A stretch of DNA of 64,000 nt from an uncultured Akkermansia sp. Lineage in GTDB: Bacteria; Verrucomicrobiota; Verrucomicrobiia; Opitutales; Opitutaceae. Within the stretch, counting starts at the first letter, position 1. The number at the start of each line of letters is the position of its first letter. The translations under genes were made by a program, and so were the position numbers. Location: positions 29,518 to 93,517 of the forward strand of contig CAYTLL010000009.1 of the NCBI GenBank assembly GCA_964438755.1. Direction: 5' to 3'. This document shows positions 10,038 through 60,644 of this stretch, piece after piece. The notes beneath the pieces are model-generated. The model saw only the letters and a program-made list of their open reading frames with translations. It did not search any database and had not been told where the DNA came from.

Positions 10038-10431
10038 GGAGGCGAGACGTCGCCGGAGGCGGATGAGGGTGGCGAGGCGGGAGCGGGGCGCCGTATTCGT
10101 GGGGATTTGTCTATCCTCCGAAGGCGCGTGGCGAAATCGCGTCCGCCGCCTTGGGGGCTGTCTTCAAAATAAACCGGCGGAAAATTTCTGGCGGGAACCA
10201 CCCGTTTTTCGCGCTGGATGAGATGTCGGCCCCCATCGTTCCGCCAATCCCGCCCGCGTCCTTCTTTTTCCCGAGTTTCCTTCGCTGTTTTATCCCAAGT
10301 TGATGCCTCCTCGGCTCATATTTTTCGCCTGGCGAGATTGGCATGGCGGTCGACGCCTCTTTCGCGCCGAGTTTTGTTTCCCCCGGCGCTCTTTCTTTTC
10401 GTCCAGCCCCGCCCCTTTCCCCGCTATCCGT

Positions 10432-19372: not shown

Positions 19373-21592
19373 TCAGGCTTTCGGGCCGCCGGCGAATTCC
19401 ACGCGGAGCAGCTCCACGTTCACCCAGTCGAACCAGAAGCCGCCCTGCTGCGTGCGTTCGGCCGGAGTGGACGCGCGGTGGCGCTCGATCAGCTGCTCCG
19501 CCTCGCGCAAGGCGTCCGCGCCCTCCGGGGCCCGGCCCAGCGCGCGCAGGGCGAGGGCCCGCAACAAATGCGCGGACGCCGAGCGCGCCTCGTTTTTGTT
19601 CGGGCTGGCGAGGCAGATGTCCGCCCACGAAAGGGTGTCGGCCGGCCGACCGCGCCGGTAGTCCATCAGGGCCAGGGCGAAGGCTCGCCAGGCTTTCATG
19701 TAGGCGTCGCGATCCGCGTCGGGGCCGATCACCGCCTCCCGCACCTGGGCATACAGCGGCTCGAGGCGCCGCAGGGATTCCGCATCGGCGGGCGCGAGCA
19801 AGGTGCATTTGAGCACCTGCTCCGCCACGACCACCTGTTCCGTCGCCCCGAATCGGCGTAGCAACACCGCGCGGAAACGGTCGTAGCCCTCGCGGTCCCC
19901 CGCGCGCAGGATCGTGGTCGCCGCGGGCATGAGCTGGTTGGAGACGCCCTGGGTGTCGCTGGGATCGATCGAGGTGATGGATTCGGCGAGCGCCGCGTAG
20001 AACCGCGCCGCCTCGGGCCAGTGGTCCGCTTGCGCGTGCCAAAAGGCCAGCGTGCGGAAAACGAGCGAGGATTCGAGGCTGGGCTGGACGAGGGAGAGAT
20101 CGAGGCCGGCGACGAGAGCGTCCGCCTCCTCCGGCTGCTTGTAGGAGATCTGCACCGCGGCGCGGGCGACGCGTTCCCCCGCCTCCGCGCGACGGCGCAG
20201 CAGCGCCTCGTTTGCCCGCGCCTCCTCCGCCTGGCGGGAAAACTCGAGCTGCGCGCGCAACGCGTGTTGTTCCCGCAGATAGAGCCGCGTGGTGGCGACG
20301 AGGCCGCCGAGCACCGAGGCGAGGACGAGGCTGGTCGCGAGCACGGGACCGCGATGGCGGCGCACGAAGCGGCGGACCTGGTAGACACGGCTGGGCGGGC
20401 GCGCGGAGACGACCGCGTGGCCGAGGTGGGCACGCAGATCGGCGGCGAAGGCGGCGACCGACTCGTAGCGCCGCTCGCGATCCGGGGCCAGGGCCTTGAG
20501 CGCGATCCAGTCCAGGTCGCCGCGGAGCGCCTCGGCGAGACGGGCCGGGGCCAGCCCGCGCAGGGCGGCCGTTTCCGCGGCCGTCGCGGGGGCGAGTTCG
20601 ACGAACACGGCGGAGGGACGGCGCGGCTCGCGCGCGCGCACGAAGCGGCGGATCTCGTCGGGGGGCAGCCGGGCCCAGTCGGGCGCGGGAAAGGGCGGGC
20701 TGCCCGCGATCAGTTCGCAGAGGACCACACCGAGGCTGAAAACGTCTCCGCGCGTATCCACGCCCGCGCTCATCTCGTCCGCGTGCTCGGGGCTCATGTA
20801 GGCCGGCGTGCCGATGAAAGCGCCGAGCTCGGTGGTGTGCAGGGTGCGCCCGGACAGGCGCGGCCCGGCGCCGGCGGCCTTGGCGATGCCGAAGTCGATG
20901 ACCTTGGGCGCGGGTTGCCCGTCGATGTCCACGACGAGCAGGTTGGACGGCTTGAGGTCGCGGTGGATGACGCCCTTTTGATGCGCGTGCTGCACGGCTT
21001 GGCAGACCTGCGCGAGCAATTCGATCCGGCGTTCGAGCGGGAGCCTATGACGGTCGCAGTAGGCGGTGATCCGTTCGCCCTGCACCCACTCCATCACGAA
21101 AAAGGGACGGCCGGAGGCGGTGGCGCCGGCGTCCAGCACACGCGCGATGTAGGGATGCTCCATCAAGGCGAGGGCCTGGCGCTCCGCCTCGAAGCGCGCG
21201 ATCACGGCCTCGGTGTCCATGCCCGGGCGGATGATTTTCAAGGCCACCTGCCGGCGCACGGGCTCGTGTTGTTCCGCGCGATAGACGATGCCGTGCCCGC
21301 CCTCGCCGATGCGCTCCAGCAGCCGGTAGCGGCCGATCTGGGTGATGCAATCGGCGGCGGGGCCCGACCCCGTGCCGGCGCAGGACCCGAGGGATGCGAC
21401 GGTGGGGGAGAGACGCGCGAAAAACGCCTCGGACGGCGCGGCGGCGGCCAGCAGGGCGTCGAGGCGCGTGCGCAGGGCAGGGTCGCCGGCGCAGACGCGG
21501 TCTAGAAAGGCGGTGCGCTCGGCGGGCTCGGCCAGCGCGAAGGCCTGGTCGAAGAGCGCGCGTTCGCGACGGGAGGGAGCGGGGGCGGGCAT
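19373..21592 (-). CDS. Membrane Ser/Thr protein kinase with extracytoplasmic helical-repeat (TPR-like) domain (module 1)
   Basis: Hanks kinase motifs are IGEGGHGIVYRA, VALKII, HRDLKPSNLL, IDFGIAK and GTPAYMSPE. A single hydrophobic helix (VLATSLVLASVLGGLVATTRLYL) follows, then about 300 aa of helical-repeat-like sequence ending in WFDWVN. The gene starts 24 bp after the stop of the ECF sigma gene. Confidence 0.9.
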   Translation of the reverse strand: MPAPAPSRRERALFDQAFALAEPAERTAFLDRVCAGDPALRTRLDALLAAAAPSEAFFARLSPTVASLGSCAGTGSGPAADCITQIGRYRLLERIGEGGHGIVYRAEQHEPVRRQVALKIIRPGMDTEAVIARFEAERQALALMEHPYIARVLDAGATASGRPFFVMEWVQGERITAYCDRHRLPLERRIELLAQVCQAVQHAHQKGVIHRDLKPSNLLVVDIDGQPAPKVIDFGIAKAAGAGPRLSGRTLHTTELGAFIGTPAYMSPEHADEMSAGVDTRGDVFSLGVVLCELIAGSPPFPAPDWARLPPDEIRRFVRAREPRRPSAVFVELAPATAAETAALRGLAPARLAEALRGDLDWIALKALAPDRERRYESVAAFAADLRAHLGHAVVSARPPSRVYQVRRFVRRHRGPVLATSLVLASVLGGLVATTRLYLREQHALRAQLEFSRQAEEARANEALLRRRAEAGERVARAAVQISYKQPEEADALVAGLDLSLVQPSLESSLVFRTLAFWHAQADHWPEAARFYAALAESITSIDPSDTQGVSNQLMPAATTILRAGDREGYDRFRAVLLRRFGATEQVVVAEQVLKCTLLAPADAESLRRLEPLYAQVREAVIGPDADRDAYMKAWRAFALALMDYRRGRPADTLSWADICLASPNKNEARSASAHLLRALALRALGRAPEGADALREAEQLIERHRASTPAERTQQGGFWFDWVNVELLRVEFAGGPKA

Positions 21593-21616
21593 CGGGGATT
21601 AATCGACTGGAACGGC

Positions 21617-22192
21617 TCAGTCCGCGTCGGCTTTCATCAGCTCGTAGAGGCAGGCGCGGGCGTAGACCCAGCGACGGTCCACGGTGCGCTCGGCGACGCC
21701 GTTCATCCACGCGATCTCGCGGTTGCTGAAGCCGCCGAAGAACTTGAGGTCGACCAGCCGCGCGCTCGCCGGGTCGCTGCGCTCGAGCTCGCGCAAGGCC
21801 GCGTCCACGCGCAGCAGGCAGGCGTCCGGGGCCTCGGCGGCGAGATTCAGGTCGTCCACGTCCAGGCGCCGCCGCGGATCCTCGTTGCGAAGCGCGGAGC
21901 GCCGGCGGGCGCGGTCCACGAGAATGCGGCGCATGGTGCGGACGGCGGTGCGAAAGAAGTGCATGCGGTCCCGCCAGCGCCGGCCGGGGCTCGAGGCGAG
22001 GCGCAGCCAGGCCTCGTGGACAAGCGCGGTCGGCTGGATCGTGTGCGCGACGGACTCGCCCCGCATCTGGCGGGCGGCGATGCGGCGCAGCTCGTCGTAG
22101 ACCAGGGGCAGCAACTCGTCGTCCCCGAGGCCGGGTTCGGTCGGCGTGTTGAGGAGGAGCGTGAGGTCGGAGAGGGAGTCGGGAGCGGACAT
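21617..22192 (-). CDS. ECF sigma factor, TIGR02999 / Sigma70_ECF type (module 1)
   Basis: Family signature: LLPLVYDELRRIAARQMRGESVAHTIQPTALVHEAWLRL, followed by region 4 FFGGFSNREIAWMNGVAERTVDRRWVYARACL. I set the start at MSAPDS (ATG at 22192). The 377-aa track ORF extension is R/P-rich and overlaps the upstream gene, so it was rejected. Confidence 0.9.
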   Translation of the reverse strand: MSAPDSLSDLTLLLNTPTEPGLGDDELLPLVYDELRRIAARQMRGESVAHTIQPTALVHEAWLRLASSPGRRWRDRMHFFRTAVRTMRRILVDRARRRSALRNEDPRRRLDVDDLNLAAEAPDACLLRVDAALRELERSDPASARLVDLKFFGGFSNREIAWMNGVAERTVDRRWVYARACLYELMKADAD

Positions 22193-22323
22193 CGCGGCGG
22201 TGCGGGCAGGGCGCGGGCCGAGCCCGGGGCCGCGGCCACCGTGTCGGGCCGACGCGCGCTTGGCAACCGGCGCGCGGCGCGATCTGACCGTGGCGAACGG
22301 TTTGTCCGCGACGAGCGTCGCGC

Positions 22324-23781
22324 TCACGGCTTCACCAGGAATGTCGCGCGGCGCCGCTCCGCGTCGGTGGTCGCCGGGCCGGTCCCGAGCCCCGCGTCGT
22401 CCGCGCGGAGATAGACGTTTTTCGAGCCGGACAGGCGGAAGGAGGCGCCGGAGGGATCGGCCAGGCCGGGGACACGGACAAAGGTGGCGCGGGCGGCGAA
22501 GGCGGGGCCGCCGTCGTTCGCCTCCATCGCGACCCCCGTCGCGGTCGCGGTGATATAGCGGTCGGGGAAGTTGACGGAACGGATCGAGACGAGGTCCTCG
22601 CCCGCGCCGGAGAGACCGGGTGCGAGTCGCCAGCGGCCGTCCGCGGCGGGGCGCACGTCGGCGTCGAGCCGCAGTCGGAAGCTGGAGTGGCGGACCCGGA
22701 GATCGGGCGCGGCGAGCGGCACGAGGCTCGCCTGCGGCCGGCTCGGCCACTTGGCGCGGAGGGCGGTGAGCTCCGAGCGGGTGATGTTGAGGACGCCGCC
22801 GTGCCGCTTGCGGCTTTCGCCGAACGCGTAGGCGTCGGCGGGGAGCACGCGGAAGGAGGCGGGGTCGTCGAGGTTGGAGATCTCGAAGGGAAGGTAGCCG
22901 CGGCCGGAGGCGTATTGATCGGCGAACAGGCCCCAGCGTTGCCGGCCGTTGAATTTGAAGAGAATCGGCCCCTCGACCTGCTTGCCGGTGTAGCCGATGC
23001 GGGAGAGATCGCCGATGCGTTCCCAGGGGCCGGCGAGACGGTCGGCGCCCTCGATCGTGATCTGCCCGTCGCCGGACGCGCGGTAGAAACGGCGCCGGGC
23101 GCCGCTCACCTCGATGATCTGGGTGTCGATGATGTCCTGGCCCTTTCCCTTTTCGCCGGGGCGGTCGATGTAGAGCGCGGGCGGGGTGAAGGTGCGAAAA
23201 TCCTTCGTGTGCGCACCGTAGATGCGGGCGCGGCGCGCGCCGTCGCGGGGCGAGATCGTCGCCCAGTAGACGAAGTAGTCGCCGCGGGTCTCGTCGAAGA
23301 TCGCCTCGGGCGCCCAGGCGCAGCCGGCCTCGGGGATCGCGGAGGCGACGTCGACCATCCAGGGCCGCGACCAGTTCACGAGGTCGGTCGACTCCCAGAA
23401 CACGAGCGAGGGGCTGCCGTTTTTCATCGAGGCGCCCCAGCCCTTGCCGCTCGCGATGCGGAGATCGGTGGCGAGGAGGATGAATTTTTTCCCGCCCTCG
23501 AGGCGGATGAGCGAGGGATCGCGCACGCCCTTTTCGCCGATGTCGGAGACGAGCACGGGCTCGGAGTCGTTGAGATCGGTCCAGCGCAGGCCGTCCTCGC
23601 TGACCGCGAAGTAGATCTGCTCGCCGCGCGGGGATTCCCCGGTGAAGTGGGCGAACAGATACGCGCTCGGCGCCTCGGGCGCGATCGGGACCGCGGCGGC
23701 TGGCGACGGGGTGTCGCGGCGGGGGTTGGCCAGCGCGATCGAGGCGAGCAGCGGAAGAAGGAGCGGGATGCGACTAAGCAT
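22324..23781 (-). CDS. GH43-type hydrolase with C-terminal AbfB (CBM42-like) domain; inverted paralog of 14829-16304
   Basis: The architecture is the same as 14829-16304, with long identical peptide stretches (YLFAHFTGESPRGEQIYFAVSEDGL; SPSLVFWESTDLVNWSRPWMVDVASAIPEAGCAWAPEAIFDETRGDYFVYWATISP). It has a signal peptide rather than a lipobox. Confidence 0.85.
   Translation of the reverse strand: MLSRIPLLLPLLASIALANPRRDTPSPAAAVPIAPEAPSAYLFAHFTGESPRGEQIYFAVSEDGLRWTDLNDSEPVLVSDIGEKGVRDPSLIRLEGGKKFILLATDLRIASGKGWGASMKNGSPSLVFWESTDLVNWSRPWMVDVASAIPEAGCAWAPEAIFDETRGDYFVYWATISPRDGARRARIYGAHTKDFRTFTPPALYIDRPGEKGKGQDIIDTQIIEVSGARRRFYRASGDGQITIEGADRLAGPWERIGDLSRIGYTGKQVEGPILFKFNGRQRWGLFADQYASGRGYLPFEISNLDDPASFRVLPADAYAFGESRKRHGGVLNITRSELTALRAKWPSRPQASLVPLAAPDLRVRHSSFRLRLDADVRPAADGRWRLAPGLSGAGEDLVSIRSVNFPDRYITATATGVAMEANDGGPAFAARATFVRVPGLADPSGASFRLSGSKNVYLRADDAGLGTGPATTDAERRRATFLVKP
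23261..23420. repeat. 160-bp block identical to the reverse complement of 15211-15370
   Basis: See the partner repeat at 15211-15370. The match is perfect over 160 bp inside otherwise diverged paralogs. Confidence 0.85.
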
Positions 23782-23809
23782 GGAATGAGGGAGGGCCTGG
23801 GGCCCGGGT

Positions 23810-24772
23810 TCAGGGCTTGGGCGGGAGGGATACGCCCTCGGTCGTCTGCGCGACGCGGCGGATGGAGCCGTCGGCCTCGTGATAGAGGTAGTCGATGCAG
23901 ACCGAGCGGCGGTAGCTGCCGCCGGTGTTGGGCCGCTGGATGGCGCCGTTGTGGTAGATGAAATACCACTGGCCTTTGAACTCGAGGATGGCCTGGTGGA
24001 TCGTGTTGCTGTTGAACGCGCCCTCCGAGACGAGGCCGCGCGAGGTCCAGGGACCCTGGATCGAGGGCGCGGTGGCGTAGGAGATCTTTTCCGGGAAGCC
24101 GCTCGCGTAGGACAGGTAGTAGGTGTCGCCGTGTTTGTGGACCCAGGGCGCCTCGGTGAAGTCGGAGAGGCCGTTGATCTCCATGATGGGGCCGTCGAGC
24201 TCGATCATGTTGGGTTTCAGCTTGGCGTAGTAGCAGTTGACGTTGCCCCAGAAGAGCCAGGCGTCGCCGTCGCGGTCGATGAACACGGCGGGGTCGATGT
24301 CCTCCCAGCCGTGCTTGCCCTTCGGCGTCATGTCGGCGGTCACGAGCGCGGAGCCGCGTGCGTCCTTGAAGGGTCCGGTGGGCGAGTCGGCGACCGCGAC
24401 GCCGAGCGCTTTGCCCGGCTTGGTCGCATTGTGCTCGATGGAGACATACCAGTAGAATTTGCCGTCCTTTTCGACGACGTGGGCGGCGTAGGCATCGGAC
24501 TTGGCCCAGGCGAAGTCCTTGACCGACAAGGGCGCGCCGTGCGGCGTCCAGGTCTTCATGTCCTTCGACGAGTAGCAGAGCCAGTCCCGCATGGTGTAAT
24601 GCTGGTTGGGGTTCGCCTCGTCGTGGCCGGTGTAGAGATAGACCGTGTCCCCGTGGACGATGGCCGCGGGGTCGGCGGTGAAGACGTCGGTGATGACGGG
24701 ATTCGCCGCGTGGAGGGCGGCGCCGAAGCAGGCGACGAGGGCGAGCGAAGAGACGAAGGGTTTCGGATTCAT
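23810..24772 (-). CDS. GH43 glycoside hydrolase (arabinofuranosidase/xylosidase type), secreted
   Basis: The signal peptide is MNPKPFVSSLALVACFGAALHA. The GH43 catalytic triad contexts are FTADPAAIVHGDTVYLY, DIDPAVFIDRDGDAWLFWG and TEAPWVHKHGDTYYLSY. I chose the start at the ATG at 24772; the longer track ORF has an R-rich N-terminal extension. Confidence 0.9.
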   Translation of the reverse strand: MNPKPFVSSLALVACFGAALHAANPVITDVFTADPAAIVHGDTVYLYTGHDEANPNQHYTMRDWLCYSSKDMKTWTPHGAPLSVKDFAWAKSDAYAAHVVEKDGKFYWYVSIEHNATKPGKALGVAVADSPTGPFKDARGSALVTADMTPKGKHGWEDIDPAVFIDRDGDAWLFWGNVNCYYAKLKPNMIELDGPIMEINGLSDFTEAPWVHKHGDTYYLSYASGFPEKISYATAPSIQGPWTSRGLVSEGAFNSNTIHQAILEFKGQWYFIYHNGAIQRPNTGGSYRRSVCIDYLYHEADGSIRRVAQTTEGVSLPPKP

Positions 24773-25007
24773 GCGTAAGAAGGGGATTGGCCGGCACGGG
24801 GAAGCGACGCGTGCGCGGCACCTTTCCCAGCGGAATAAACCCGCGTTTTCCGACACGCGATTTGAGCCGTTTTTTTCGCGGAGCATACTTCTGCCGGGGC
24901 GCTTGATGGCGAGGCGACGTGTCCGCGGATCACGCCGGGCCCTGCAGCGCCTCCGATGCTTGGCGCAAACCGGGCCGTGCCCGCGTTTTTCCTCATGACC
25001 CCCCGCC

Positions 25008-26147
25008 ATGCCCGCCCCTGCATCTTTTCCCTCGCATGTGGCGAAGCCGCGCGCCTCCCATGCCGCCACCGTCGTCGAGCGCGTGTCTTTGCCGGAGCTT
25101 GCCGCCCTCCGTCTGCGCGAGGGCATCGCCGCGGGACGCTGGGGCGAGCGGCTTCCGAGCGAGCGGGAACTTTGCCGCGAGCTGCGAATCGGCCGTGCGT
25201 CCCTCCGTCAGGCTATCGCGCTCCTTGTCGCCGAAAAATCACTGAGGTCGGGAGGCCGAGGCCGGCGGCATGGCGTCCTGGCGTCAGCCCCTGTCGCATC
25301 GAATGCCGAGCCGGGCCGGGTCATACGCGTGCTCACGCCGCTGCCGCCCAGGCAACTGGGCGAGACCCATCTGGCGATCTGCGACAACCTGCGGGAGCGC
25401 GCAGAGCGGGCGGGATATCGGGTGGAGATCGAATATCGTCCGCGGGTTTATCGTCTGCGCGAACCGCGCGAGCTCGCGCGGCTGCACGCTTTGCCCGACA
25501 CCGCCGGCTGGGTCGTTCTTTTTTCCACGGAGGCGATCCAGCGCGTGTTGATGGAGCGCGCCATTCCCGCCGTTCTTGTGGGGCCCGCTTATCCAGGGGT
25601 GCGACTGTCCGCGGTCTGGCCCGACAGCGTTGCCGCCGCGCGTCATGCGGCGGGGCTTTTTCACGCGCGCGGACATCGTCGCGTCGCCTACGCGCAGGCC
25701 CTGGAGCCGACCCTGGGGGTAAAACGCGCGGAGCGGGCTTTCCTCGATGAATCCCTCCGCCTCGGCATGAGCGCATGCACCATCCACTTCGATCCTTCCG
25801 GGCGCGTCTGGCGCTCGCCCTGGCAGCCGCTGCTGGCCCTGCGCCCTCGTCCCACCGGGATCCTGTGCTGCGGTTCCTATGTCGCCCTGAATCTGCTCTG
25901 CCACCTGCAGGGCGGAGGGCTTCTGGTCCCGCGCGATGCCTCCCTGGTTTCGCTTTGGTCCGAAGGTTTCATGCGCCACACCGAGCCCGCGCTGACGAGC
26001 TACCGCGTGGACGGCATCGACATGGCCCGAAGAATCCTCCGGCTTTTGTTTCGGCGTATCGCGCGTGGACCGGGCGAGCACGACGGGGTCGCTCTGATTC
26101 CGGAGCTCGAAGGCGGCGCGTCGATCTCATTCGCGCCCGCCGCGTGA
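25008..26147 (+). CDS. Transcriptional regulator: GntR-type wHTH fused to a LacI/PBP1-type sugar-binding domain
   Basis: The N-terminal wHTH is LPSERELCRELRIGRASLRQAIALLVAEKSL. The C-terminal roughly 280 aa have an alternating beta/alpha periplasmic-binding-protein-like pattern (IRVLTP..., WVVLFS..., PAVLVG..., GHRRVAY..., TGILCCGSYVALNLL). The gene is divergent from the GH43 gene at 24772. Confidence 0.7.
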   Translation: MPAPASFPSHVAKPRASHAATVVERVSLPELAALRLREGIAAGRWGERLPSERELCRELRIGRASLRQAIALLVAEKSLRSGGRGRRHGVLASAPVASNAEPGRVIRVLTPLPPRQLGETHLAICDNLRERAERAGYRVEIEYRPRVYRLREPRELARLHALPDTAGWVVLFSTEAIQRVLMERAIPAVLVGPAYPGVRLSAVWPDSVAAARHAAGLFHARGHRRVAYAQALEPTLGVKRAERAFLDESLRLGMSACTIHFDPSGRVWRSPWQPLLALRPRPTGILCCGSYVALNLLCHLQGGGLLVPRDASLVSLWSEGFMRHTEPALTSYRVDGIDMARRILRLLFRRIARGPGEHDGVALIPELEGGASISFAPAA

Positions 26148-26177: not shown

Positions 26178-26614
26178 GCTCGCAGGAGGGGCGGGCGTTT
26201 GACAGCGCCCCGTCGCGGCGGCTCCCTCGGGGTAATTCGCGCGAATCGCATTTTTTGAAAGTATCTGTATCCGAAATATAACGACGAATGGAGCGATGGA
26301 GCGCCACTTGTCCGGAGCCGGCCTGGTTCGCGTATTCGCGTGCGCCGATGCGTTTTTCCAGCCGCAACCTAAACCGATTGCCGATGAAAGGTTCCATTGT
26401 CCGACGTAGGCGACGCGCGAATAGCCCGGCTTTTTCGCCTTCCGCGGTCGCTTGCGGCGGTGCGAACCCGGTCGAGATGGATCGTCGTAAGCCGATTCCC
26501 GGCATACGTGTTCTCCTTCGCTCGAATCGGGGTTGTTTTTCCGCTTTTCGGCGGATCGCGCCGAGAAATCGCGTTACTTCCTTGGCCCCATCTTACCCTG
26601 ACCCTCGTTTTTCC

Positions 26615-29600
26615 ATGGTTCACCGCCGACTGCTCCCCCGATTCCTTCCGCGCGCCTGGCTCGCGTCCTTTTTCGGCGCCTGCCGCGCGCCGATGTTATG
26701 CGTCCTTGCGCTGGCCGGCGCCGTTCCCTGCTCGCCGGCCGCGGTGACGTGGAGCGGCGACGCGGGCCCGTGGGGACCCGGCCCGATGAACGACTGCGTC
26801 GCGACTTGGAACACCTACGCGTCCTACAATTACAACATTCCCGTCGTCTACAGCTCGGGCACGCCGACCGCCGACGCCGGTTACTTCGGCCAGATCCGCT
26901 TCGGCGGCTCGGGCAACTACCGCACGGCCATGCACGAATCCAGCCACTGGTTCGGCACCGGCACGACCTGGCAGTGGGACCAGCACCAGCGCTGGAGCAT
27001 CTGGAACGGCGCCTATGTCACCAACCTGCGTCGCGCCTATGACGGACCCGGCGAGCGCCAGTTCATCTACGGCGTCCATTACGGCCCGCAGGGCGCCAAC
27101 TACGACTCAGAGGGCGTGCAGGCGCCCCAGATGGTCGGCATCATCGGCGCCTTCCGGCGCGACATGGAGCTCGATGTCCGCGACCAGACCATCGGCGTCG
27201 CGCCGGATACCTACCGCCTGCGCAACCGCGCCGCGGTCAAGGTGCTCGACAGTCTCGGCTCCTCCGCCGAGGGCGCCGCGCTCAAGCAGGCCGAAAACAC
27301 GACGACCACCGCCCAGGAGTGGGACGTGAATCTCGTCCTCGGCACGCGCCACTTCACCATCCGCAACGTCGCGACCGGCAAGTATCTCGACTCGCTCGGC
27401 GCCGCCTCCGACGGCTCCCCCGTCGTTCTCACCTCGCTCGTCGGCGGCGCGCCCACCGACAACCAGCTTTGGGAAATCGTTCCGACAGACTCGTTTTTCT
27501 TCAAAATCATCAACAAGGCCAACGGCCGCGCCCTCGACAACGAGGGCCAGACCGCGGACGGCGGCGGGATCAAGCAGTGGGCCGCCGCCGGCAACAACAG
27601 CTGGAACCAGCAGTGGACTTTTCTCCACCCGCTCGTGCAAAGCGCGCCCCCCGCGGGCGTGGTTTCCCAAGGCCGCTGGGTCTCCTCCAGCTCGACCGAC
27701 GGCGGCAACTACGACACCAAGGGCAACAACGGCGTCGCCGGCGACCGCTGGACCGCCTCCAGCGGCTCCTATCCGCAGTGGTGGCAGGTCGATCTCGGTT
27801 CGGTGCAGCCGATCACCAAGGTCGAGGTCGACTGGTTCCGGGACGGCGCGCCCGTCTTCCAGTATCGCATCGAGGTCAGCGACGACGGAGCCAACTTCAC
27901 CGTCGCCGCCGATCGCACTGGCAACACCGTCACCGGCACCACCGTCGACCGCTTCCTCTCGTCGGGCCGCTACGTGCGCGTCGTCGCCACGGGCGTGACC
28001 GGCGGCGGCTACTGGGCCGCGTTTTTCGAGTGCCGCGTCTACAACGAGGTGCAGCCCATGCAGCTGCTCTCCCTCTTTCGTCCGACCACCGCGAGCAGCG
28101 AGCAGGCCGGCAACCTTGCCGTGAACGCCAACGACGTGGACCCCATTCTCACCCGCTGGTGCTCCAACTCGTCCGGCTACCCCGCCTGGTGGCAGGTCGA
28201 CCTCGGCTCCGCCAGGCAGGTCAACAAAGCCGTCATCCAGTGGTTCGACGACGAGGGCCGCTCCTACAAATACCGCATCGAGGGCAGCACCGACGGCGTG
28301 AATTTCACCACGCTGCTTGATCGCACGGACAACACCACGCCCTCCGTCACCACCGACACCTTCTCCGGCGTCGCCCGCTACGTGCGCATCAACATCACCG
28401 GCGGCTCCTCCAGCTATCCCAGCCTCTACGACGCCCAGATCTACGGCGCGGTCGGCCCGCAGCCCGCCTCCGCCCCCGCCGGTCTCGCCGCCACCGCGAC
28501 CTCCTCGCAGATCCAGCTTTCCTGGCTCTCCGTGCCCGGCGCGACGACCTATGAGGTAAAGCGGGCGCTCTCGGCGGGCGGCCCTTACGCGACCCTCGGC
28601 ACGCCCGCCGGCCCGGCCTACACGGACACCACCGTGCAGCTTGGCGTGCCTTACTATTACGTCGTCTCCGCGACCGGCTCCTCCGGCGTCAGCGCGGATT
28701 CCGCCCCCGTCGTCGCCGCGGCCGGCGCCGAGCTGCGCGCCTGGCTGCCCTTCAACGAGACCTCCGGCGCCGTCGCCGCCGACGCCAGCGGTCTCGGCCG
28801 CGCCGGCGCGCTGATCAACGGCCCCGTCTGGGCCTCCGGCAACTTCGCCAACGCGATCGATCTCGACGGCGCCGACGACTACGTCGCCTTGCCCGCCGGC
28901 ATCGTCTCCGGCCTCAACGACTTCACCGTCGCCGCCTGGGTCAATCCCGACGTGAACGGCAACTGGGCCCGCCTCTTCGACTTCGGCACGGGAACCGATA
29001 ACTACATGTTCCTCGCGCCGACCAACGGCTCGGTCCTGCGCTTCGCCATCCGCACGCCTTCCGTCGGCGAGCAGCAGCTCAGCGCCTCGCCCCTCCCGGC
29101 CGGCGTCTGGTCGCATGTCGCCGTCACGCTCTCCGGCAACACCGCCACCCTCTACGTCAACGGCGTCTCCGTCGCGACCAACACCGCGGTGACCCTTCGC
29201 CCCTCCTCTCTCGGCAACACGACCAACAACTGGATCGGCCGCGCCCAATTCGCCGATCCCTACCTCAACGGCAAGGTCGACGACTTCCGCATCTACAACC
29301 GGGCGCTCAACACCACCGAGATCGCCCGCCTTCGCGGCCTATCCGCCCCCGCCGCCGCGCCCGTGCTCGCCGCGCAGGCGGGCGACGGCCGCATCGCCTT
29401 GGCCTGGTCCGCCGCGCTCGGCGCTACCGGCTACAAGGTGCAACGCGCGACCGTATCCGGCGGGCCTTACACGACCGTCGCGACCGTCGCCGCCGCCACC
29501 TATGCGGACACCGGTCTCTCCAACGGCACCGCCTATTATTACGTCGTCTCCGCGCTCAACGCCGCTGGCGAGGGCATTCCGTCCGTCGAGCGAAGCGCCA

Positions 29601-41937: not shown

Positions 41938-41954
41938 GAACAAATCCGACCGTA

Positions 41955-46691: not shown

Positions 46692-46947
46692 TTTGTTTTT
46701 GGGGTTGGGAATCGCCCGTCGAGGCGCAGGGGATCGTCGGCGCGGGCAAAGGGTAGGCTGCGCCCTTGGCGGCGGCTCGTGCCGGCCGGGCGGAGGGGTA
46801 AGGGTGGGGGCGAGCCGCTCTCGGGGACGGTGAGGAAGCGGAGCCAATGATACGAACGCGGTCTCGCGGCCGCGCGCGCCACGGGCGCGCGTCTTTACGC
46901 TTTTTGCATGAATCCCCGCCCCGCGTGCCCCGAGGCGAAGGCGTCGC

Positions 46948-49995: not shown

Positions 49996-50162
49996 GGGAC
50001 GGGGAGCGCGCGGGGAGGGGGCGCAAGCGAAGGAGCGAAAGTGGACCGGTCATCCCGCCAAGGCACTCGCGAATCGCCGAGCCCGAGCCTCGCGCGGCTT
50101 CGGGCCGCGGACCGCGCCGGTGACCGGGAAACGGCCGGGAGGGCGTCTTGCCTCGCGGGTTT

Positions 50163-51404: not shown

Positions 51405-51530
51405 GTGGATGGGCGGCCCGGGGTCGAGGGGGGCGTCGACAGTGAGGAACGCGTTTCGCGGGGGAGTTGCGCCAGAGGGCGGCGCCTTTTTTCCAAACTT
51501 TTCCTTCCGCGCCGGCCAAGCGGCCTGTCG

Positions 51531-53735
51531 CTAGCGGGTTCGGAGCGGCGCCCGCGGGGCGGGGATCTGGTCGCGGCGGTCGAGCATGCCGGCGGCTTCG
51601 CGCACGAGGATGCGGGCGTTGATCCAGTCGAACCAAAGGATCTGGGTGGCGGGTTCCCAGGGCTCGAGCGCGCTCCGGAAACGCTCGTCCAGGCGCGCGC
51701 GGTCTTCCTCGACCAGTCGCGCGGCCTCGTCGTGCCGGCCGAGCTGGGCGTAGGACATGGCCATGACCATGCGGGCGGAGATCTCGCGGGGGAGGTTGGG
51801 GTTTTGGTAGGACAGGCAGCGTTTGCTCCAGCGGATCGCGCCTTCGAGATCGCCGCGGCGCTGAGCGAGGAGGCCGAGCGCGAAGGAGCGCCACGCGTCG
51901 AGGTAAGGGTCGGCGCTGGCCTGGCGGTCGGCGCCCTCGAAGGTGGTGAGCACGACGTCCGCGAGGGGGGCGAGCGAGTCGAGAAACTCCGGGGGGGCCG
52001 GGGTCAGCAGGCTGGCTTTCAGGACCTGCTCGGCGGGCATCGGGTTGGTGGTGCGCGCGAAGCGGGCGACGGCGTTGCGTCGGAACGCGTCGTATTGAGC
52101 GTCGTCGCCGTTCTCGCAGATCGCGGAGGCGGCGGGCATGAGGCTGAAGGACACCTTGTCGGAGTCGGAGGGGTCGACGCGGGTGATGACGAGGGAGAGG
52201 GCGAAGTGGCGTTTGGCCGACTCGGCCCAACGGCCGCCGATGGCGTGCCATTCGCCGAGGGCGCGGAGCACCTGCGCGCATTCCAGCGAGGGGCGGAAGA
52301 GGCCGTCGTCGATCTGGGCGACGAGGGCGTCGGCCTCGGCGATCCGGCCGTAGGTCAGGAACACGGCGGCCTGCGCGATCTTTTCGCCGGCCTCCGCCTG
52401 GGCGAGGAGCCGGGTCTGCTCGCGGCGGGCGATGCGCTCGCGGTGGAGCAGCCAGGTCGAGAGGCCCAGGCCGGCGAGGAGCGTGACCAGGACGAGCGCG
52501 CCGGCGACGAAGACCACGCGGTTGCGCCGGACGAGCTTTTCAAAGCGGTAAAGGCGGCTGGGCGGGCGCGCGGCGACGAGCTCGTTCGCGAGATAACGGC
52601 GGATGTCCATCGCGAGGCCGTAGGCGGTCTCGTAGCGCCTGCGCCGGTCTTTTTCCAGCGCGGTGGCGATGATCCAGTCGAGGTCGCCGCGGACGGCGGC
52701 GATGAGGCGCGAGGGGTCGGCGCGCTGCTGCCGGGCGATCGCGAGAAGGTCTCCCGGCGGGAGGGCGGCGAGGACCGCGGAAGGGCGGGGGACCTCGCGT
52801 TCGCAGATGATGCGGCGCATGCTTTCCAGGCCGCCGGCCTCGAGTTCCTTGGAGTCGAAGGGGGTGCGGCCGGTGAGGAGTTCGTGCAGGAGCACGCCGA
52901 GGCTGTAGATGTCGCCGCGGGTATCGAGGTCGGGGTTGCCGAGATCGGCCTGCTCGGGGCTCATGTAGGCCGGCGTGCCGATGAGGTGCAGCTGGAAGGT
53001 GAGCCCGGGCTCGCCGTGGCGGCCCTCGACGGCCTTGGCGATGCCGAAGTCGATGATCTTCGGCATGGGCTGGCCGTCCTGCGTGGTGACAAGGATGTTG
53101 GACGGCTTGATGTCGCGGTGGATGATGCCCTTCTGGTGGGCGTGCTGGAGGGCGTGGCAGACGCGGATGAAGAGTCGCAGCCGCTCCTCGGTGGTGAGGA
53201 AATGTTGCGCGCAGTAGTCGGTGATTTTGATGCCGTGCACCAACTCCATCACGAAGTAGGGCCGCCCGGAGTCCGTCGTGCCGGCGTCGAGCACGCGGGC
53301 GATGTTCGGGTGGTCCATGATGGCGAGCGCCTGCCGCTCGCGCTCGAAACGCGTGATGACGCTCTCGGTGTCCATGCCGAGGCGGATGACCTTGAGCGCC
53401 ACCTGCCGGCGAACCGGTTCCTCCTGCTCGGCGAGGTAGACCACGCCGCAGCCGCCGGTGCCGAGTTTGCGGAGGATCTTGTAGCGCCCGATCTTCGCTA
53501 CGCCCCGTCCGCCGCGGTCGCCGGAATAGGATTCGAACTCGTCGGCGCTGCCGGTGGGCAGGGGGCTCAGGAGGGTCTCCGCCGGTTCCTGCAACGCGAG
53601 CAGTTCCTCGAGCCGCCGGCGCATCGTGGCGTCGTCCTGGCAGTGGTGGTCCAGGAAGGCGCGTCGCTCGGTCTCGCCGGCGAGCCCGACCAGTTCCTCG
53701 AAGAGGAGCCGTTCCCGTTTGCGCGCCTCGGTCAT
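51531..53735 (-). CDS. Membrane Ser/Thr protein kinase with extracytoplasmic helical-repeat (TPR-like) domain (module 2)
   Basis: Kinase motifs are LGTGGCGVVYLA, VALKVI, HRDIKPSNIL, IDFGIAK and GTPAYMSPE. The TM helix is VFVAGALVLVTLLAGLGLSTWLL. The C-terminal roughly 300 aa are collinear with the module 1 kinase and include the terminal WFDWIN. I set the start at MTEARK (ATG at 53735), which overlaps the sigma stop as ATGA. Confidence 0.9.
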   Translation of the reverse strand: MTEARKRERLLFEELVGLAGETERRAFLDHHCQDDATMRRRLEELLALQEPAETLLSPLPTGSADEFESYSGDRGGRGVAKIGRYKILRKLGTGGCGVVYLAEQEEPVRRQVALKVIRLGMDTESVITRFERERQALAIMDHPNIARVLDAGTTDSGRPYFVMELVHGIKITDYCAQHFLTTEERLRLFIRVCHALQHAHQKGIIHRDIKPSNILVTTQDGQPMPKIIDFGIAKAVEGRHGEPGLTFQLHLIGTPAYMSPEQADLGNPDLDTRGDIYSLGVLLHELLTGRTPFDSKELEAGGLESMRRIICEREVPRPSAVLAALPPGDLLAIARQQRADPSRLIAAVRGDLDWIIATALEKDRRRRYETAYGLAMDIRRYLANELVAARPPSRLYRFEKLVRRNRVVFVAGALVLVTLLAGLGLSTWLLHRERIARREQTRLLAQAEAGEKIAQAAVFLTYGRIAEADALVAQIDDGLFRPSLECAQVLRALGEWHAIGGRWAESAKRHFALSLVITRVDPSDSDKVSFSLMPAASAICENGDDAQYDAFRRNAVARFARTTNPMPAEQVLKASLLTPAPPEFLDSLAPLADVVLTTFEGADRQASADPYLDAWRSFALGLLAQRRGDLEGAIRWSKRCLSYQNPNLPREISARMVMAMSYAQLGRHDEAARLVEEDRARLDERFRSALEPWEPATQILWFDWINARILVREAAGMLDRRDQIPAPRAPLRTR

Positions 53736-54331
53736 TTGCGCGGTGGCGTCGCGCCCTTTTCGGGCGGATTCGCGCCCGGATCCTGGCGGACGAGCCGGTA
53801 AAGGGAGGCGCGGGCGTAGGCCCACTGGCGATTGAGGGTGCGTTCGCTGACGCCGAGGATTTCGGCGATCTCCTCGTTGGTGAAGCCGCCGAAGAACTTG
53901 TAGGTCACGAGACGCGCGCTCTCGGGGTCCTCGGCCTCGAGCCGGGTGAGGGCTTCGTTGACCAGAAGCACCCGCTCGTCGGGCTGCGGGCTGCTGAGAT
54001 TAAGGTCGGCGATGTCGACCGGCTCCATCATGCGGCCGCGTTTGCGCGTGGCCTTTTTGCGCGCGAGGTCGACGAGGATGTGGCGCATCGCCAGGGCGGC
54101 GGCGCGAAAGAAGTGCTGGCGATCGTTCCAGTTGCGCTCGCCTTGGTGGGCGAGGCGAAGCCAGGCCTCGTGGACGAGGGCGGTGGGTTGCAGGGTGACG
54201 GGCCCGTCCTCGCGTCGCAGGCGCCGGGCGGCGAGCCGGCGCAATTCGTCGTAAACGAGCGGCAGCAACTTTTCCGGAGCTCCGGGATCCCCTTGTTCCG
54301 CGGCGCGCAGGAGTTGGGTGATCTCGCTCAT
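53732..54331 (-). CDS. ECF sigma factor, TIGR02999 / Sigma70_ECF type (module 2)
   Basis: The N-terminus is MSEITQLLRAAEQGDPGAPEKLLPLVYDELRRLAARRLRREDGPVTLQPTALVHEAWLRL. Region 4 is FFGGFTNEEIAEILGVSERTLNRQWAYARASL. Confidence 0.9.
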   Translation of the reverse strand: MSEITQLLRAAEQGDPGAPEKLLPLVYDELRRLAARRLRREDGPVTLQPTALVHEAWLRLAHQGERNWNDRQHFFRAAALAMRHILVDLARKKATRKRGRMMEPVDIADLNLSSPQPDERVLLVNEALTRLEAEDPESARLVTYKFFGGFTNEEIAEILGVSERTLNRQWAYARASLYRLVRQDPGANPPEKGATPPRK

Positions 54332-59968: not shown

Positions 59969-60644
59969 GCGCGAGGTCGGCGATCTTTTGGGGCAAGGTC
60001 TTGGCGCTTGAACGCCTTGGCCTTGCCTCGAGCAAAGAACGCTCCGGCTTGTTTCCGCGGGAGGGCAGGGGCGTGGCGGTCGAGTGCGTTCTCGCGCCGC
60101 CGCAGGGAAAAGAAGCTGCCTGAAATGAGCGGACGTCGCTTTCCCGGCTGGATGTTAAGTCAACGAAGGAGCTTATAGGCCAAGGGCTTCGATTTCTCTT
60201 TGTTGCGCTTGGGATTGTCCTGCCCGCCTCCGTTCGGCGCGCCGATGAGCAGACTGATCTATTTGTGAAACCGAGACTAAGCGATTTTCGCCGCGGATTG
60301 GCGTCGGAGGCGACGAGTGACGCCGGGGTGATCGTTCGTTTCGGTGCTCGGCCGCGTCGCGACAGGAAATTCGTTTCGGCCGTTTTGGAGTTTTTCCTCA
60401 TTCGGTCGCGTGTTGCCTGCCCTTTTGGCCGCGCAACTTTATTTCCCGCAATGTCATCCGTGTTCGATCTCCCGGGATGCTCATGCGGAAGTGGGCGCCG
60501 CCCGCGATTTTAGATTCGTGGAAAAATAATCCGAACTTCTTGGCGCAAGTCGCCGCGCTTTCTCGTTCCTATCTGTTCAAGCCCCTCTCGCGCCCGCGTG
60601 GACACCCCTCTCCGCGCCACCCCCTTTTTGTTGTTATCCAGACC

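What the first reader, a model, noticed from the sequence alone, without database searches (positions are those of the whole stretch)
19373..22192. ECF sigma factor + membrane Ser/Thr kinase module with no anti-sigma factor, embedded in a CAZyme island (module 1)
A TIGR02999-type ECF sigma gene is followed 24 bp later by a Hanks-type kinase. The kinase has a cytoplasmic N-terminal catalytic domain, one TM helix and about 300 aa of predicted extracytoplasmic helical repeats. I could not see any anti-sigma factor (zinc-finger ZAS or RskA-like) next to it. Established knowledge: some ECF groups (ECF43 and the STK-associated groups described for Planctomycetes/Verrucomicrobia) are genomically coupled to Ser/Thr kinases. 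For Vibrio EcfP/PknT, sigma phosphorylation replaces anti-sigma control. The new element here is the context. The module lies directly downstream of two GH43 genes on the same strand, with a 132-bp gap, and inside an arabinoglycan-degrading island. This suggests the kinase ectodomain senses a glycan or glycan-derived cue and drives the giant secreted proteins. That would be functionally analogous to SusR/HTCS or trans-envelope ECF/anti-sigma control in Bacteroidota PULs, but mechanistically different.
Basis: partly seen in the sequence, partly recalled or inferred. Interest (0 to 1): 0.7.

Follow-up and report, generated by a model that had tools for sequence, protein, structure and literature searches.

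The report
Phospho-switched sigma factor in sugar-degrading island
A sigma factor of the kind that is switched on by phosphorylation, paired with its membrane sensor kinase, sits inside a plant-sugar-degrading gene island of a Verrucomicrobium, and a shared promoter-like motif in front of the neighbouring enzyme operons suggests the pair controls them.

Summary
Bases 21617-22192 (-) encode a 191-aa ECF sigma factor (TIGR02999/PF07638). Bases 19373-21592 (-), 24 nt downstream, encode a 739-aa Hanks kinase with one TM helix and a confidently modelled all-helical TPR-like ectodomain. No anti-sigma gene is present.

The pair is not a new kind. The sigma has the ECF43 signature: no acidic DAED motif, and Thr55 in QPTA. 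The kinase's best solved relative is Xanthomonas PknS, the kinase of the ECF43 sigma EcfK, with the same architecture.

The context is the interesting part, and it holds up.
- Orthologues down to 69% identity keep the order (GH51)-GH43-sigma-kinase while their flanks differ.
- A bipartite ECF-like motif, TGkCGsrA-N15-CGyT, heads eight transcription units of the island, including the GH43-sigma-kinase operon.
- The same motif recurs directly after the kinase gene, in front of GH43 or GH31 genes, in independent paralogous loci of other Verrucomicrobiota.
- A second paralogous module lies at 51531-54331.

That the cue is a glycan is untested, and the TPR fold gives no support for direct sugar binding. 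The island also carries conventional GntR/PBP and AraC regulators.

Verdict: a known mechanism in a new, testable regulatory role.

The parts
21617..22192 (-). ECF sigma factor 1 (191 aa). The sigma2.2 motif is IQPT55ALVHEAW; the Thr55 codon lies at 22028-22030.
   Evidence: PF07638 E 7e-41 and TIGR02999 163 bits. The Q[PA]T[AE] motif is invariant in 33 homologues. The start codon is supported by homologue N-termini.
19373..21592 (-). Hanks-type Ser/Thr kinase 1 (739 aa). N-terminal extension aa 1-85 (21338-21592); kinase domain aa 89-304 (20681-21328); TM helix aa 415-437 (20282-20350); TPR-like ectodomain aa 438-739 (19376-20281).
   Evidence: Pfam. Best PDB hit is 9EED PknS, E 4.9e-55, over aa 8-388. 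Hydropathy and charge bias. AF2 pLDDT 93. Foldseek hits to TPR proteins.
22259..22268 (-). Conserved box GGTTGCCAAG in the 131-nt gap upstream of sigma 1. It may be the -35 element of a separate, possibly constitutive, promoter for sigma-kinase.
   Evidence: Invariant CGGTTGCCA in four orthologous loci. An analogous ATTGTC box lies upstream of sigma-2-type genes. The -10 partner and the function are not established.
22324..23781 (-). GH43-related + AbfB (CBM42-like) arabinofuranosidase gene, directly upstream of sigma 1.
   Evidence: Pfam. Synteny in L006 and L017.
23810..24772 (-). GH43 gene with a signal peptide. It is the first gene of the proposed operon GH43-GH43/AbfB-sigma1-kinase1.
   Evidence: Pfam E 9.5e-43. 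The start was revised from the translation.
24829..24855 (-). ECF-like promoter motif TGTCGGAA-N15-CGCT, 83 nt upstream of the GH43 start.
   Evidence: PWM score 35.1. Conserved in L006 and L017; the TGGCGGA variant occurs in L008 and L011.
24961..24987 (+). Motif TGGCGCAA-N15-CGTT, 47 nt upstream of the GntR/PBP regulator gene. It lies back-to-back with the GH43 site.
   Evidence: Recovered by the PWM built from the loci only.
25008..26147 (+). GntR-HTH + periplasmic-binding-protein-like regulator, a conventional sugar-responsive type.
   Evidence: PF00392 and PF13377.
10189..10215 (+). Motif TGGCGGGA-N15-CGCT, upstream of the GH127-GH51-GH43/AbfB-GH43rel(-GH27) gene row, which converges on kinase 1.
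   Evidence: This site was not used to define the pattern.
26549..26575 (+). Motif variant CGGCGGAT-N15-CGTT, 66 nt upstream of the giant LamG/F5-8C/Ricin protein gene (true start ATG 26615).
   Evidence: PWM 18.7. Recovered by the loci-only PWM. Start codon.
46855..46881 (-). Motif TGGCGCGC-N15-CGTT upstream of the Ricin/LamG protein gene 43734-46847.
50034..50060 (-). Motif TGGCGGGA-N15-CGCT upstream of the Ricin/LamG/fn3 protein gene 46948-49995.
   Evidence: This site was not used to define the pattern.
51448..51474 (-). Motif TGGCGCAA-N15-CGTT, 57 nt after the kinase 2 stop and upstream of the GH31 C-terminal-domain gene 50163-51404.
   Evidence: Conserved at the same place in L026 and L029.
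60541..60567 (+). Motif TGGCGCAA-N15-CGTT, 104 nt upstream of the LamG/Ig/PATR protein gene starting at 60645.
   Evidence: PWM 38.3. Conserved in L025 and L029 with a diverged spacer.
53732..54331 (-). ECF sigma factor 2 (199 aa), 54% identical to sigma 1, with the same QPTA motif.
51531..53738 (-). Kinase 2 (735 aa), 47% identical to kinase 1 over the full length, including the N-terminal extension and the ectodomain. Its start overlaps the sigma 2 stop.

Best explanation
Module 1 is an EcfK/PknS-type (ECF43-like) signalling pair. The sigma factor lacks the acidic sigma2.2 patch that binds RNA polymerase and carries Thr55 in its place. It is therefore inactive until the adjacent membrane Hanks kinase phosphorylates it.

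The kinase is cytoplasmic up to a single TM helix and exposes a roughly 300-aa TPR-like sensor in the periplasm.

Once activated, the sigma most likely reads promoters of the form TGkCGGrA-N15-CGyT. Such promoters head the arabinofuranosidase operons on both sides of the module. They also head the operon GH43-GH43/AbfB-sigma1-kinase1 itself, which would give positive feedback, and several giant secreted lectin-domain proteins. The paralogous module 2 probably reads the TGGCGCAA variant.

What is shown: gene identities, family membership, topology, fold, conserved synteny, and the existence, placement and conservation of the motif.

What is inferred: that the motif is a promoter, that these sigmas read it, and that the periplasmic cue reports the presence of arabinose-rich plant glycans.

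My probabilities for the individual steps:
- ECF43/PknS-type pair: 0.95.
- Local CAZyme regulon: 0.6.
- Glycan-related cue: 0.35.
- Direct sugar binding by the TPR domain: 0.15.
For: Family membership.
- TIGR02999 and PF07638 hits above their cut-offs.
- Q[PA]T[AE]LVHEAW is invariant in 33 homologous sigmas. It matches the ECF43 QTTA/QATE phospho-site described in PMC13147305 and PMC8999054.
- The best solved relative of the kinase is PknS 9EED: E 4.9e-55 and 191 bits, against 140 bits for PknB. The alignment covers the N-terminal extension through the juxtamembrane segment.
- PknS has the same 83-aa extension + kinase + TM + periplasmic TPR plan.

Topology and fold.

Pairing. The sigma gene lies directly upstream of the kinase gene in every related locus with enough upstream DNA.

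Synteny.
- Kinase orthologues at 86% and 69% identity, and locus L017 (sigma 81% identical), keep (GH51)-GH43-(GH43/AbfB)-sigma-kinase while their flanks differ.
- In L008 the gap between GH43 and sigma is only 11 nt.
- Paralogues at about 50% identity sit next to GH43, GH10, GH3, GH127 or PL1 genes.

Motif.
- The exact pattern TGGCGC-N17-CGTT occurs 5 times in the window against 0.48 expected; 0 of 100 shuffles reach 5.
- The generalised pattern gives 9 hits, 7 of them intergenic. All 7 face a gene 34-111 nt away.
- PWM hits of 9 or more: 11 intergenic against 2 coding, although only 9.4% of the window is intergenic.
- There are 21 PWM hits in 505 kb against about 0.2 in shuffles.
- Cross-validation finds sites right after the kinase stop, in front of GH43-Ricin, GH31 and other genes, in L015, L019, L024, L030, L031 and L038.
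- The boxes are conserved while the spacers diverge.
- The sites are not hairpins, and two of them lie back-to-back in a divergent gap.
- The sigma4 helix residue E/D goes with -35 CGG, N with CGC, and A with CAGG.
Against: - There are no expression or phosphorylation data.
- The motif was found post hoc. A first unbiased dyad count was within the null range, and part of the cross-validation uses orthologous sites.
- The sigma 2 operon itself has no such motif upstream, and neither does the giant gene at 54575.
- One 65%-identical orthologue (L009/L018) has no CAZyme neighbour.
- The island has its own GntR/PBP and AraC regulators, and related loci carry LacI and AraC regulators.
- The ectodomain is a generic TPR-like fold. 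Its strongest conservation is family-wide, across 3985 cluster representatives. This argues for a common ligand or partner rather than a locus-specific sugar.
- The covariation between sigma4 and the -35 box is confounded by phylogeny.
Confidence: 0.6

Rival explanations
1. The pair is a genuine ECF43-type module, but its cue and regulon are unrelated to glycans (for example envelope or antimicrobial stress, as for EcfP/PknT). It sits among CAZymes only because these genomes are CAZyme-dense and because close relatives share synteny. Under this reading the island is run by its GntR/PBP and AraC regulators, and the shared motif is read by some other sigma factor.
For: - Conventional regulators are present in the island and in related loci.
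- Orthologue L009 has no CAZyme neighbours.
- Several distant paralogues have no detected GH neighbour.
- The known ECF43 systems respond to polymyxin or to amoebae.
- The sigma 2 operon is not preceded by the motif.
Against: - The motif lies immediately after the kinase stop, or in front of the sigma-containing operon, in about 13 distinct loci, against about 0.2 hits expected in all the DNA scanned.
- It is absent from housekeeping genes in the same loci.
- GH43-sigma linkage survives flank turnover at 69% identity.
Confidence: 0.25
2. The module does control the island, but the TPR ectodomain does not bind sugar. It would bind a protein or peptide partner instead, for example a periplasmic or secreted glycan-binding protein or one of the co-regulated lectin-domain giants, and the partner reports substrate availability.
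For: - The Foldseek neighbours are peptide- or protein-binding TPR scaffolds (MamA, LGN, KLC) at E about 1e-3.
- The PknS periplasmic TPRs are described as protein-protein modules.
- The invariant residues are shared across thousands of family members regardless of context.
Against: - No partner gene is consistently linked, apart from GH43-Ricin and GH31-type neighbours.
- Some periplasmic TPR-like proteins handle polysaccharides (my own knowledge, not tested here).
- The conserved aromatic GFWFDW motif could equally be a sugar platform or part of the protein core.
Confidence: 0.3
3. The roughly 65-85-aa helical N-terminal extension of the kinase is a built-in sigma-docking or anti-sigma-like domain. 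It would hold the cognate sigma at the membrane and give each of the many paralogous pairs its specificity.
For: - The extension is conserved across the family, with consensus LF..A..L.D...R.AFLD.AC..DP.LR.RLE.LL.
- It is homologous to the PknS N-terminus.
- There is a weak Pfam hit to RskA_N, E 0.019 and 15.5 bits.
- It is predicted as four short helices.
- The function of the PknS extension is unknown.
Against: - The Pfam hit is below its cut-off of 27 bits.
- A profile search of PDB sequences finds no anti-sigma factor.
- Foldseek finds nothing with E below 3.
- The model confidence is only moderate (pLDDT 75).
Confidence: 0.15

Closest known systems
EcfK/PknS of Xanthomonas citri (ECF43; PMC13147305, PDB 9EED)
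   Same: The kinase has the same plan: an approximately 80-aa helical N-terminal extension, a Hanks domain, one TM helix and a periplasmic TPR region. PknS is the best PDB sequence match (E 4.9e-55). The sigma has Thr in place of the DAED patch; EcfK has QATE and this sigma has QPTA. The pair regulates an adjacent gene cluster.
   Different: The target cluster is a T6SS and the cue is amoeba predation. The sigma is not embedded in the target operon. X. citri has a single system, not an expanded paralogous family. The ectodomain here is a distinct roughly 300-aa family with no Pfam model.
EcfP/PknT of Vibrio parahaemolyticus (ECF43; Iyer et al. 2020, as summarised in PMC8999054)
   Same: The sigma is intrinsically inactive and is activated by Thr phosphorylation in sigma2.2 by the adjacent membrane kinase. 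There is no anti-sigma factor.
   Different: It responds to polymyxin, and its regulon confers antibiotic resistance. The motif is STTA rather than QPTA. No CAZyme context is reported.
Planctomycetota/Verrucomicrobiota kinase-associated ECF groups (ECF59-62, ECF217; PMC7826278)
   Same: Sigma-kinase gene pairs without an anti-sigma factor, in PVC bacteria.
   Different: According to PMC8999054 those groups keep a DAED-like motif, whereas this sigma lacks it, as ECF43 does. Assignment with the group HMMs could not be run.
Bacteroidota PUL regulators (SusR, hybrid two-component systems, ECF sigma/anti-sigma/SusC-like trans-envelope signalling; ECF240 in PMC7826278)
   Same: The proposed role is the same: a locus-specific envelope sensor encoded inside a glycan-degrading gene cluster that switches on that cluster (for ECF240 and carbohydrate scavenging).
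   Different: There is no anti-sigma factor, no TonB-dependent transducer, no histidine kinase or response regulator, and no SusCD. Activation would be by Ser/Thr phosphorylation of the sigma factor.

Membership tests
ECF43-type sigma factors | ECF sigma with sigma2 and sigma4 only, matching the TIGR02999/PF07638 models | tested here: met
   TIGR02999 163.4 bits (cut-off 126.15); PF07638 E 7e-41 over aa 25-183 of 191.
ECF43-type sigma factors | Adjacent gene for a Hanks-type Ser/Thr kinase | tested here: met
   The kinase starts 24 nt downstream. The pairing is conserved in all related loci with upstream DNA.
ECF43-type sigma factors | Sigma2.2 lacks the acidic DAED/DxxD patch and carries a conserved Thr (consensus QTTA) | tested here: met
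   IQPT55ALVHEAW in sigma 1. Among 33 homologues the motif is QPTA in 24, QATA in 8 and QATE in 1.
ECF43-type sigma factors | No co-encoded anti-sigma factor | tested here: met
   No anti-sigma Pfam family was found in any neighbour scanned. The genes from 19373 to 24772 are separated by gaps of 24, 131 and 28 nt. An anti-sigma factor encoded elsewhere in the genome cannot be excluded from one window.
ECF43-type sigma factors | Assignment by the group-specific HMMs of the ECF classification (Casas-Pastor et al. 2021) | not testable with these tools
   Those HMMs are not in any available library.
ECF43-type sigma factors | The sigma is phosphorylated by the kinase, and phosphorylation is needed for RNA polymerase binding | not testable with these tools
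   Needs an in vitro kinase assay, phosphoproteomics, and T55A/T55E mutants.
PknS/PknT-type receptor kinases | Approximately 80-aa helical N-terminal extension preceding the kinase domain, homologous to that of PknS | tested here: met
   The full-length phmmer alignment to 9EED starts at aa 8 of the query and aa 10 of the chain. The extension-only profile hits 9EED residues 8-55 at E 0.1, which is weak on its own. AF2 predicts 4 helices.
PknS/PknT-type receptor kinases | Catalytically complete Hanks domain, single TM helix, extracytoplasmic TPR region | tested here: met
   Catalytic motifs; Pfam; TM helix and charge bias; TPR-like model and Foldseek hits.
Bacteroidota-type PUL regulation (ECF/anti-sigma/SusC or HTCS) | FecR-like anti-sigma factor plus TonB-dependent SusC-like transducer, or a hybrid histidine kinase/response regulator/AraC protein, in the locus | tested here: not met
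   None of these families appears in the Pfam scans of about 30 window genes. The analogy is one of role only.
Class I anti-sigma domain (considered for the kinase N-terminal extension) | Recognisable anti-sigma domain by sequence profile or by fold | tested here: not met
   RskA_N scores 15.5 bits against a cut-off of 27. There is no anti-sigma chain in the PDB profile search, and no Foldseek hit with E below 3.

The most novel reading that the evidence does not exclude
Verrucomicrobiota would run their polysaccharide-degrading gene clusters with an expanded family of phosphorylation-activated ECF43-type sigma factors. Each sigma would be paired with its own TPR-sensor Ser/Thr kinase and would read its own -35 variant of a TGkCGsrA-N15-CGyT promoter. 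This would be a third regulatory solution for glycan utilisation, beside SusR/HTCS and ECF/anti-sigma/TonB signalling in Bacteroidota.
Probability: 0.4. Interest if true: 0.8.

Novelty: new variant of a known kind. Interest (0 to 1): 0.62.

Why it matters
Verrucomicrobiota are major degraders of complex plant and algal glycans, yet how they sense substrates and switch on their CAZyme clusters is essentially unknown. They lack the SusCD/HTCS logic of Bacteroidota.

Sigma-factor phosphorylation has so far been shown in only a few proteobacterial cases, which concern stress or defence. If these pairs are the locus-specific switches of glycan islands, three things follow:
- The ECF43 mechanism would extend to nutrient acquisition.
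- The large expansion of sigma/kinase pairs in this phylum would be explained.
- A predicted promoter and predicted regulons would become available for direct testing and for annotating metagenomes.

My full-text searches of the paper library found no report of this link.

Tried and rejected
1. A word-indexed homology search with the ectodomain alone gave only 2 hits and was uninformative. The exhaustive profile search was needed.
2. A sigma70-like pattern, TTGYC-N16-18-YAnnnT, derived from the boxes upstream of the sigma genes, is not enriched in the window: 6 hits against 7.7 expected. The GGTTGCC box is not found upstream of any other island gene. It is therefore not the shared regulon motif.
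3. The first unbiased dyad count (5-mer + 4-mer) over 17 intergenic regions gave a maximum of 4 sequences, within the shuffle range of 3-4. The motif became significant only when the full boxes and the exact 17-nt spacing were considered. With one mismatch allowed the simple pattern is not enriched: 9 hits against 11.8 expected.
4. I considered reading the motif as intrinsic terminators, because two sites were flagged by the terminator scan. I rejected this. The sites have no consistent structure (z from -1.9 to +0.9), and two lie back-to-back in a divergent gap with no upstream co-directional gene.
5. The idea that the kinase N-terminal extension is an anti-sigma domain is not supported.
6. 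An Rfam scan of the whole window found nothing.
7. Literature searches for an ECF/kinase-CAZyme link in Verrucomicrobiota or Planctomycetota found nothing relevant. Iyer et al. 2020 itself is not in the library.


Full report
**What is there**

The window is about 69% G+C. I mapped genes by third-position GC and by Pfam.

On the minus strand, bases 21617-22192 encode a 191-aa ECF sigma factor. It matches PF07638 (E 7e-41) and TIGR02999 (163 bits against a cut-off of 126). Twenty-four nucleotides downstream, bases 19373-21592 encode a 739-aa Hanks-type kinase. Its Pkinase domain covers aa 89-304, and all catalytic motifs are intact.

The kinase has one hydrophobic segment, aa 415-437, with 6 K+R before it and 2 after it. 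Because the kinase domain must be cytoplasmic, the last roughly 300 aa face the periplasm.

A GH43+AbfB gene (22324-23781) and a GH43 gene lie upstream on the same strand. The true start of the GH43 gene is 24772, where a signal peptide begins. Public gene calls lengthen the sigma to 236 aa, but the N-termini of about 25 homologues support the ATG at 22192.

There is no room for an anti-sigma gene, and none was detected.

A second, paralogous module lies at 53732-54331 (sigma 2, 54% identical to sigma 1) and 51531-53738 (kinase 2, 47% identical over its full length).

**What family it belongs to**

Sigma 1 has IQPT55ALVHEAW where canonical ECFs have the acidic DAED patch. All 33 homologous sigmas collected here have Q[PA]T[AE] at this position.

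This is the signature of ECF43. In that group the Thr is phosphorylated by the adjacent kinase, which supplies the negative charge needed to bind RNA polymerase. The consensus is QTTA, EcfK has QATE and EcfP has STTA (PMC13147305 and PMC8999054).

Among all PDB sequences, the best match to kinase 1 is 9EED (E 4.9e-55, 191 bits, against 140 bits for PknB). The alignment runs from aa 8 to aa 388, so it includes the N-terminal extension and the juxtamembrane segment. 9EED is PknS(1-364) of Xanthomonas citri, the kinase of the ECF43 sigma EcfK.

PknS is described as an 83-aa N-terminal extension, a kinase domain, a TM helix and periplasmic TPRs. That is the same plan as here. The module is therefore a member of a known kind, and the absence of an anti-sigma factor is the rule for that kind.

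**The ectodomain**

A profile of the ectodomain finds 3985 cluster representatives at E of 1e-3 or better, and 257 at 1e-30 or better. Most are kinases of about 720-760 aa. Some are about 1000-1240 aa long with two copies of the domain.

With a 26-sequence alignment, AlphaFold2 gives an all-alpha model with pLDDT 93: a long stalk helix followed by about 13 helices. The Foldseek neighbours in the PDB are TPR scaffolds (MamA, LGN, kinesin light chain) at E of about 1e-3. No Pfam model covers the domain.

Nothing in the fold indicates sugar binding. The most conserved residues, including a C-terminal GFWFDW motif, are shared across the whole family.

**Is the CAZyme context meaningful?**

I looked up contigs that carry relatives of kinase 1.
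- 86% identity (L006): GH43, GH43/AbfB, sigma, kinase, inside a rearranged CAZyme island.
- Two relatives at 69% identity (L008, L011): GH51, GH43, sigma, kinase. One flank is housekeeping genes, and the gap between GH43 and sigma is only 11-68 nt.
- 65% identity (L009): no CAZyme nearby.
- 52% identity (L013): LacI, MFS and GH8/GH43 on one side; GDSL, GH10/GH43, GH3, GH43 and GH127 on the other.
- 51% identity (L015): a pectate-lyase/Ig protein and GH43-Ricin.

A scan of species-representative genomes returned 24 loci, all from Verrucomicrobiota (Opitutaceae, Haloferula, Luteolibacter, Rariglobus and others). Several came from the same MAG, which shows that the family is paralogously expanded. 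In every locus with upstream DNA, the sigma gene directly precedes the kinase gene. At least half of the loci have GH or lectin-domain neighbours by tblastn. Orthologues of module 2 (L025, L029) keep the divergent giant LamG/GSDH/cytochrome-c gene.

**A shared promoter-like motif**

A first dyad count over the island's intergenic regions was not above the null. One of its top dyads, however, turned out to be part of a longer element with exact spacing, TGGCGCAA-N15-CGTT.

The exact core TGGCGC-N17-CGTT occurs 5 times in the window against 0.48 expected, and 0 of 100 shuffles reach 5.

In front of the GH43 operon, orthologues share TGTCGGAA-N15-CGCTGGGA (window, L006, L017) or TGGCGGA-N16-CGCTCGGAC (L008, L011). 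The spacing is the same in all.

The generalised pattern TG[GT]CG[GC]-N17-CG[CT]T gives 9 window hits. Seven are intergenic, and each faces a start codon 34-111 nt away. The genes are:
- GH127a, which heads the GH127-GH51-GH43/AbfB-GH43rel row;
- GH43, which heads the sigma1-kinase1 operon;
- the GntR/PBP regulator;
- two Ricin/LamG genes;
- the GH31-like gene that follows kinase 2;
- the LamG/Ig/PATR gene at 60645.

A PWM built from 15 sites gives 21 hits in 505 kb of window plus loci, against about 0.2 in shuffles. In the window, hits scoring 9 or more are 11 intergenic against 2 coding, although only 9.4% of the window is intergenic. One of them is a site 66 nt upstream of the true start (26615) of the first giant gene.

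In cross-validation, the PWM built from the loci alone recovers window sites, including two that are not orthologous to any training site (24961 and 26549). The PWM built from the window alone finds sites directly after the kinase stop in L015, L019, L024, L030, L031 and L038. These sites lie in front of GH43-Ricin, a full-length GH31, a GH31 C-terminal-only gene, a LuxR response regulator and a PEP-CTERM protein.

No hit precedes a housekeeping gene in these loci. The boxes are conserved while the spacers diverge. The sites have no consistent secondary structure, and two of them lie back-to-back in the divergent GH43/GntR gap, so they are not terminators.

The sigma4 recognition helix also varies with the -35 box. 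ERT-x-(E/D)-R-x-W goes with TGkCGG. ERTLNRQW (sigma 2 and its orthologues) goes with TGGCGCA. ERTIARQW (L038) goes with TGGCAGG. This is suggestive, but it is confounded by phylogeny.

**Separate promoter boxes for the sigma genes**

The 131-nt gap upstream of sigma 1 contains an invariant CGGTTGCCA box. Sigma-2-type genes have an ATTGTC box about 85-95 nt upstream. These boxes are not shared with other island genes. They may drive basal expression of sigma and kinase.

**Most likely mechanism**

Basal amounts of inactive sigma 1 and of kinase 1 are made. A periplasmic cue acting on the TPR domain activates the kinase. The kinase phosphorylates Thr55, and possibly linker residues as in EcfK. 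Phospho-sigma binds core RNA polymerase and initiates at TGkCGGrA-N15-CGyT promoters. This switches on the arabinofuranosidase operons on both sides of the module and, by read-through, its own genes. No terminator was found in the gap upstream of sigma 1. Module 2 would do the same at TGGCGCAA promoters.

The steps from the motif onward are inferred.

The GH127, GH51, GH43/AbfB and GH27/NPCBM content points to arabinose-rich plant glycans or glycoproteins as the substrate, but the cue itself is unknown. A protein partner is at least as likely as a sugar.

**Rivals**

- The module responds to an unrelated stress. The island is run by its GntR/PBP and AraC regulators, and the motif belongs to another sigma factor.
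- The ectodomain binds a protein rather than a glycan.
- The kinase N-terminal extension is a sigma-docking or anti-sigma-like domain. The only support is a sub-threshold RskA_N hit. The PDB profile search and Foldseek find no anti-sigma domain.

**Novelty and verdict**

The sigma/kinase mechanism is known, and the domain plan matches PknS/EcfK. What I found no report of is threefold:
- the embedding of such pairs in CAZyme operons;
- their recurrent linkage to GH43 and GH31 genes across Verrucomicrobiota;
- a conserved ECF-like promoter that ties the pair to the island.

I rate this a new variant of a known kind. Interest is moderate to high, because it makes the open question of glycan-locus regulation in Verrucomicrobiota directly testable.

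Noticed in passing
window 50163-51404 (-); also L019:12813-13802, L026:2030-2878, L029:10983 to the locus end: A short gene encodes only the end of the GH31 TIM barrel plus the GH31 C-terminal beta-sandwich. It has no N-terminal or catalytic part and no signal peptide. It is conserved after kinase-2-type kinases in several loci, whereas L038 has a full-length 983-aa GH31 at the same position. It therefore looks like a conserved truncated derivative rather than a one-off pseudogene.
   Followed up: partly
window 25008-26147 (+) and about 41952-42767 (+): Conventional regulators lie inside the island: a GntR-HTH fused to a periplasmic-binding-protein-like sugar domain, and an AraC-family regulator divergent from a GH127 gene. 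The GntR gene itself carries the ECF-like motif upstream, which would make a regulatory cascade.
   Followed up: partly
window 24984-25010 and 26606-26617: The -10-like box CGTTTTTCC runs almost directly into the ATG of the GntR gene (CGTTTTTCCTCATG) and of the giant gene at 26615 (CGTTTTTCCATG). This suggests leaderless or very short-leader transcripts. At 26583 the -35 box has one mismatch (TGGCCC).
   Followed up: no
L001-L005 (NCBI GCA_013565655.1, GCA_013565615.1, GCA_013566075.1, GCA_013573075.1, GCA_013558375.1): The same roughly 8-kb stretch, with a 100% identical kinase, is present in several very large NCBI assemblies whose contig accessions run above one million. The bacterium's DNA therefore recurs in multiple huge assemblies, either as metagenomes or as contamination of a host assembly.
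   Followed up: no
window 21617-22327: Public gene calls give the sigma factor a 236-aa product that starts at a GTG overlapping the GH43/AbfB stop (GTGA). Homologue N-termini indicate that the 191-aa form starting at ATG 22192 is correct.
   Followed up: yes
proteins P0164-P0175, P0193, P0209 and others; Family members of about 1000-1240 aa carry two tandem copies of the ectodomain after the TM helix.
   Followed up: no
L031:207-10815: Two sigma/kinase modules lie in tandem with a GH27 gene between them. The second is followed by the motif and then by a LuxR-type response regulator.
   Followed up: partly
window 54575-59968 (+): A giant secreted protein combines LamG domains, a glucose/sorbosone-dehydrogenase (PQQ-type) beta-propeller and a C-terminal cytochrome c domain. 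It is divergent from sigma 2, and this arrangement is conserved in L025 and L029.
   Followed up: no
window 22259-22268 (-), 54409-54414 (-); loci: Conserved TTGCCA/TTGTCA-type boxes lie 74-96 nt upstream of most of the closer sigma genes of this family. They are distinct from the ECF-like motif. They may be the -35 elements of housekeeping-type promoters, but no convincing -10 partner was found.
   Followed up: partly
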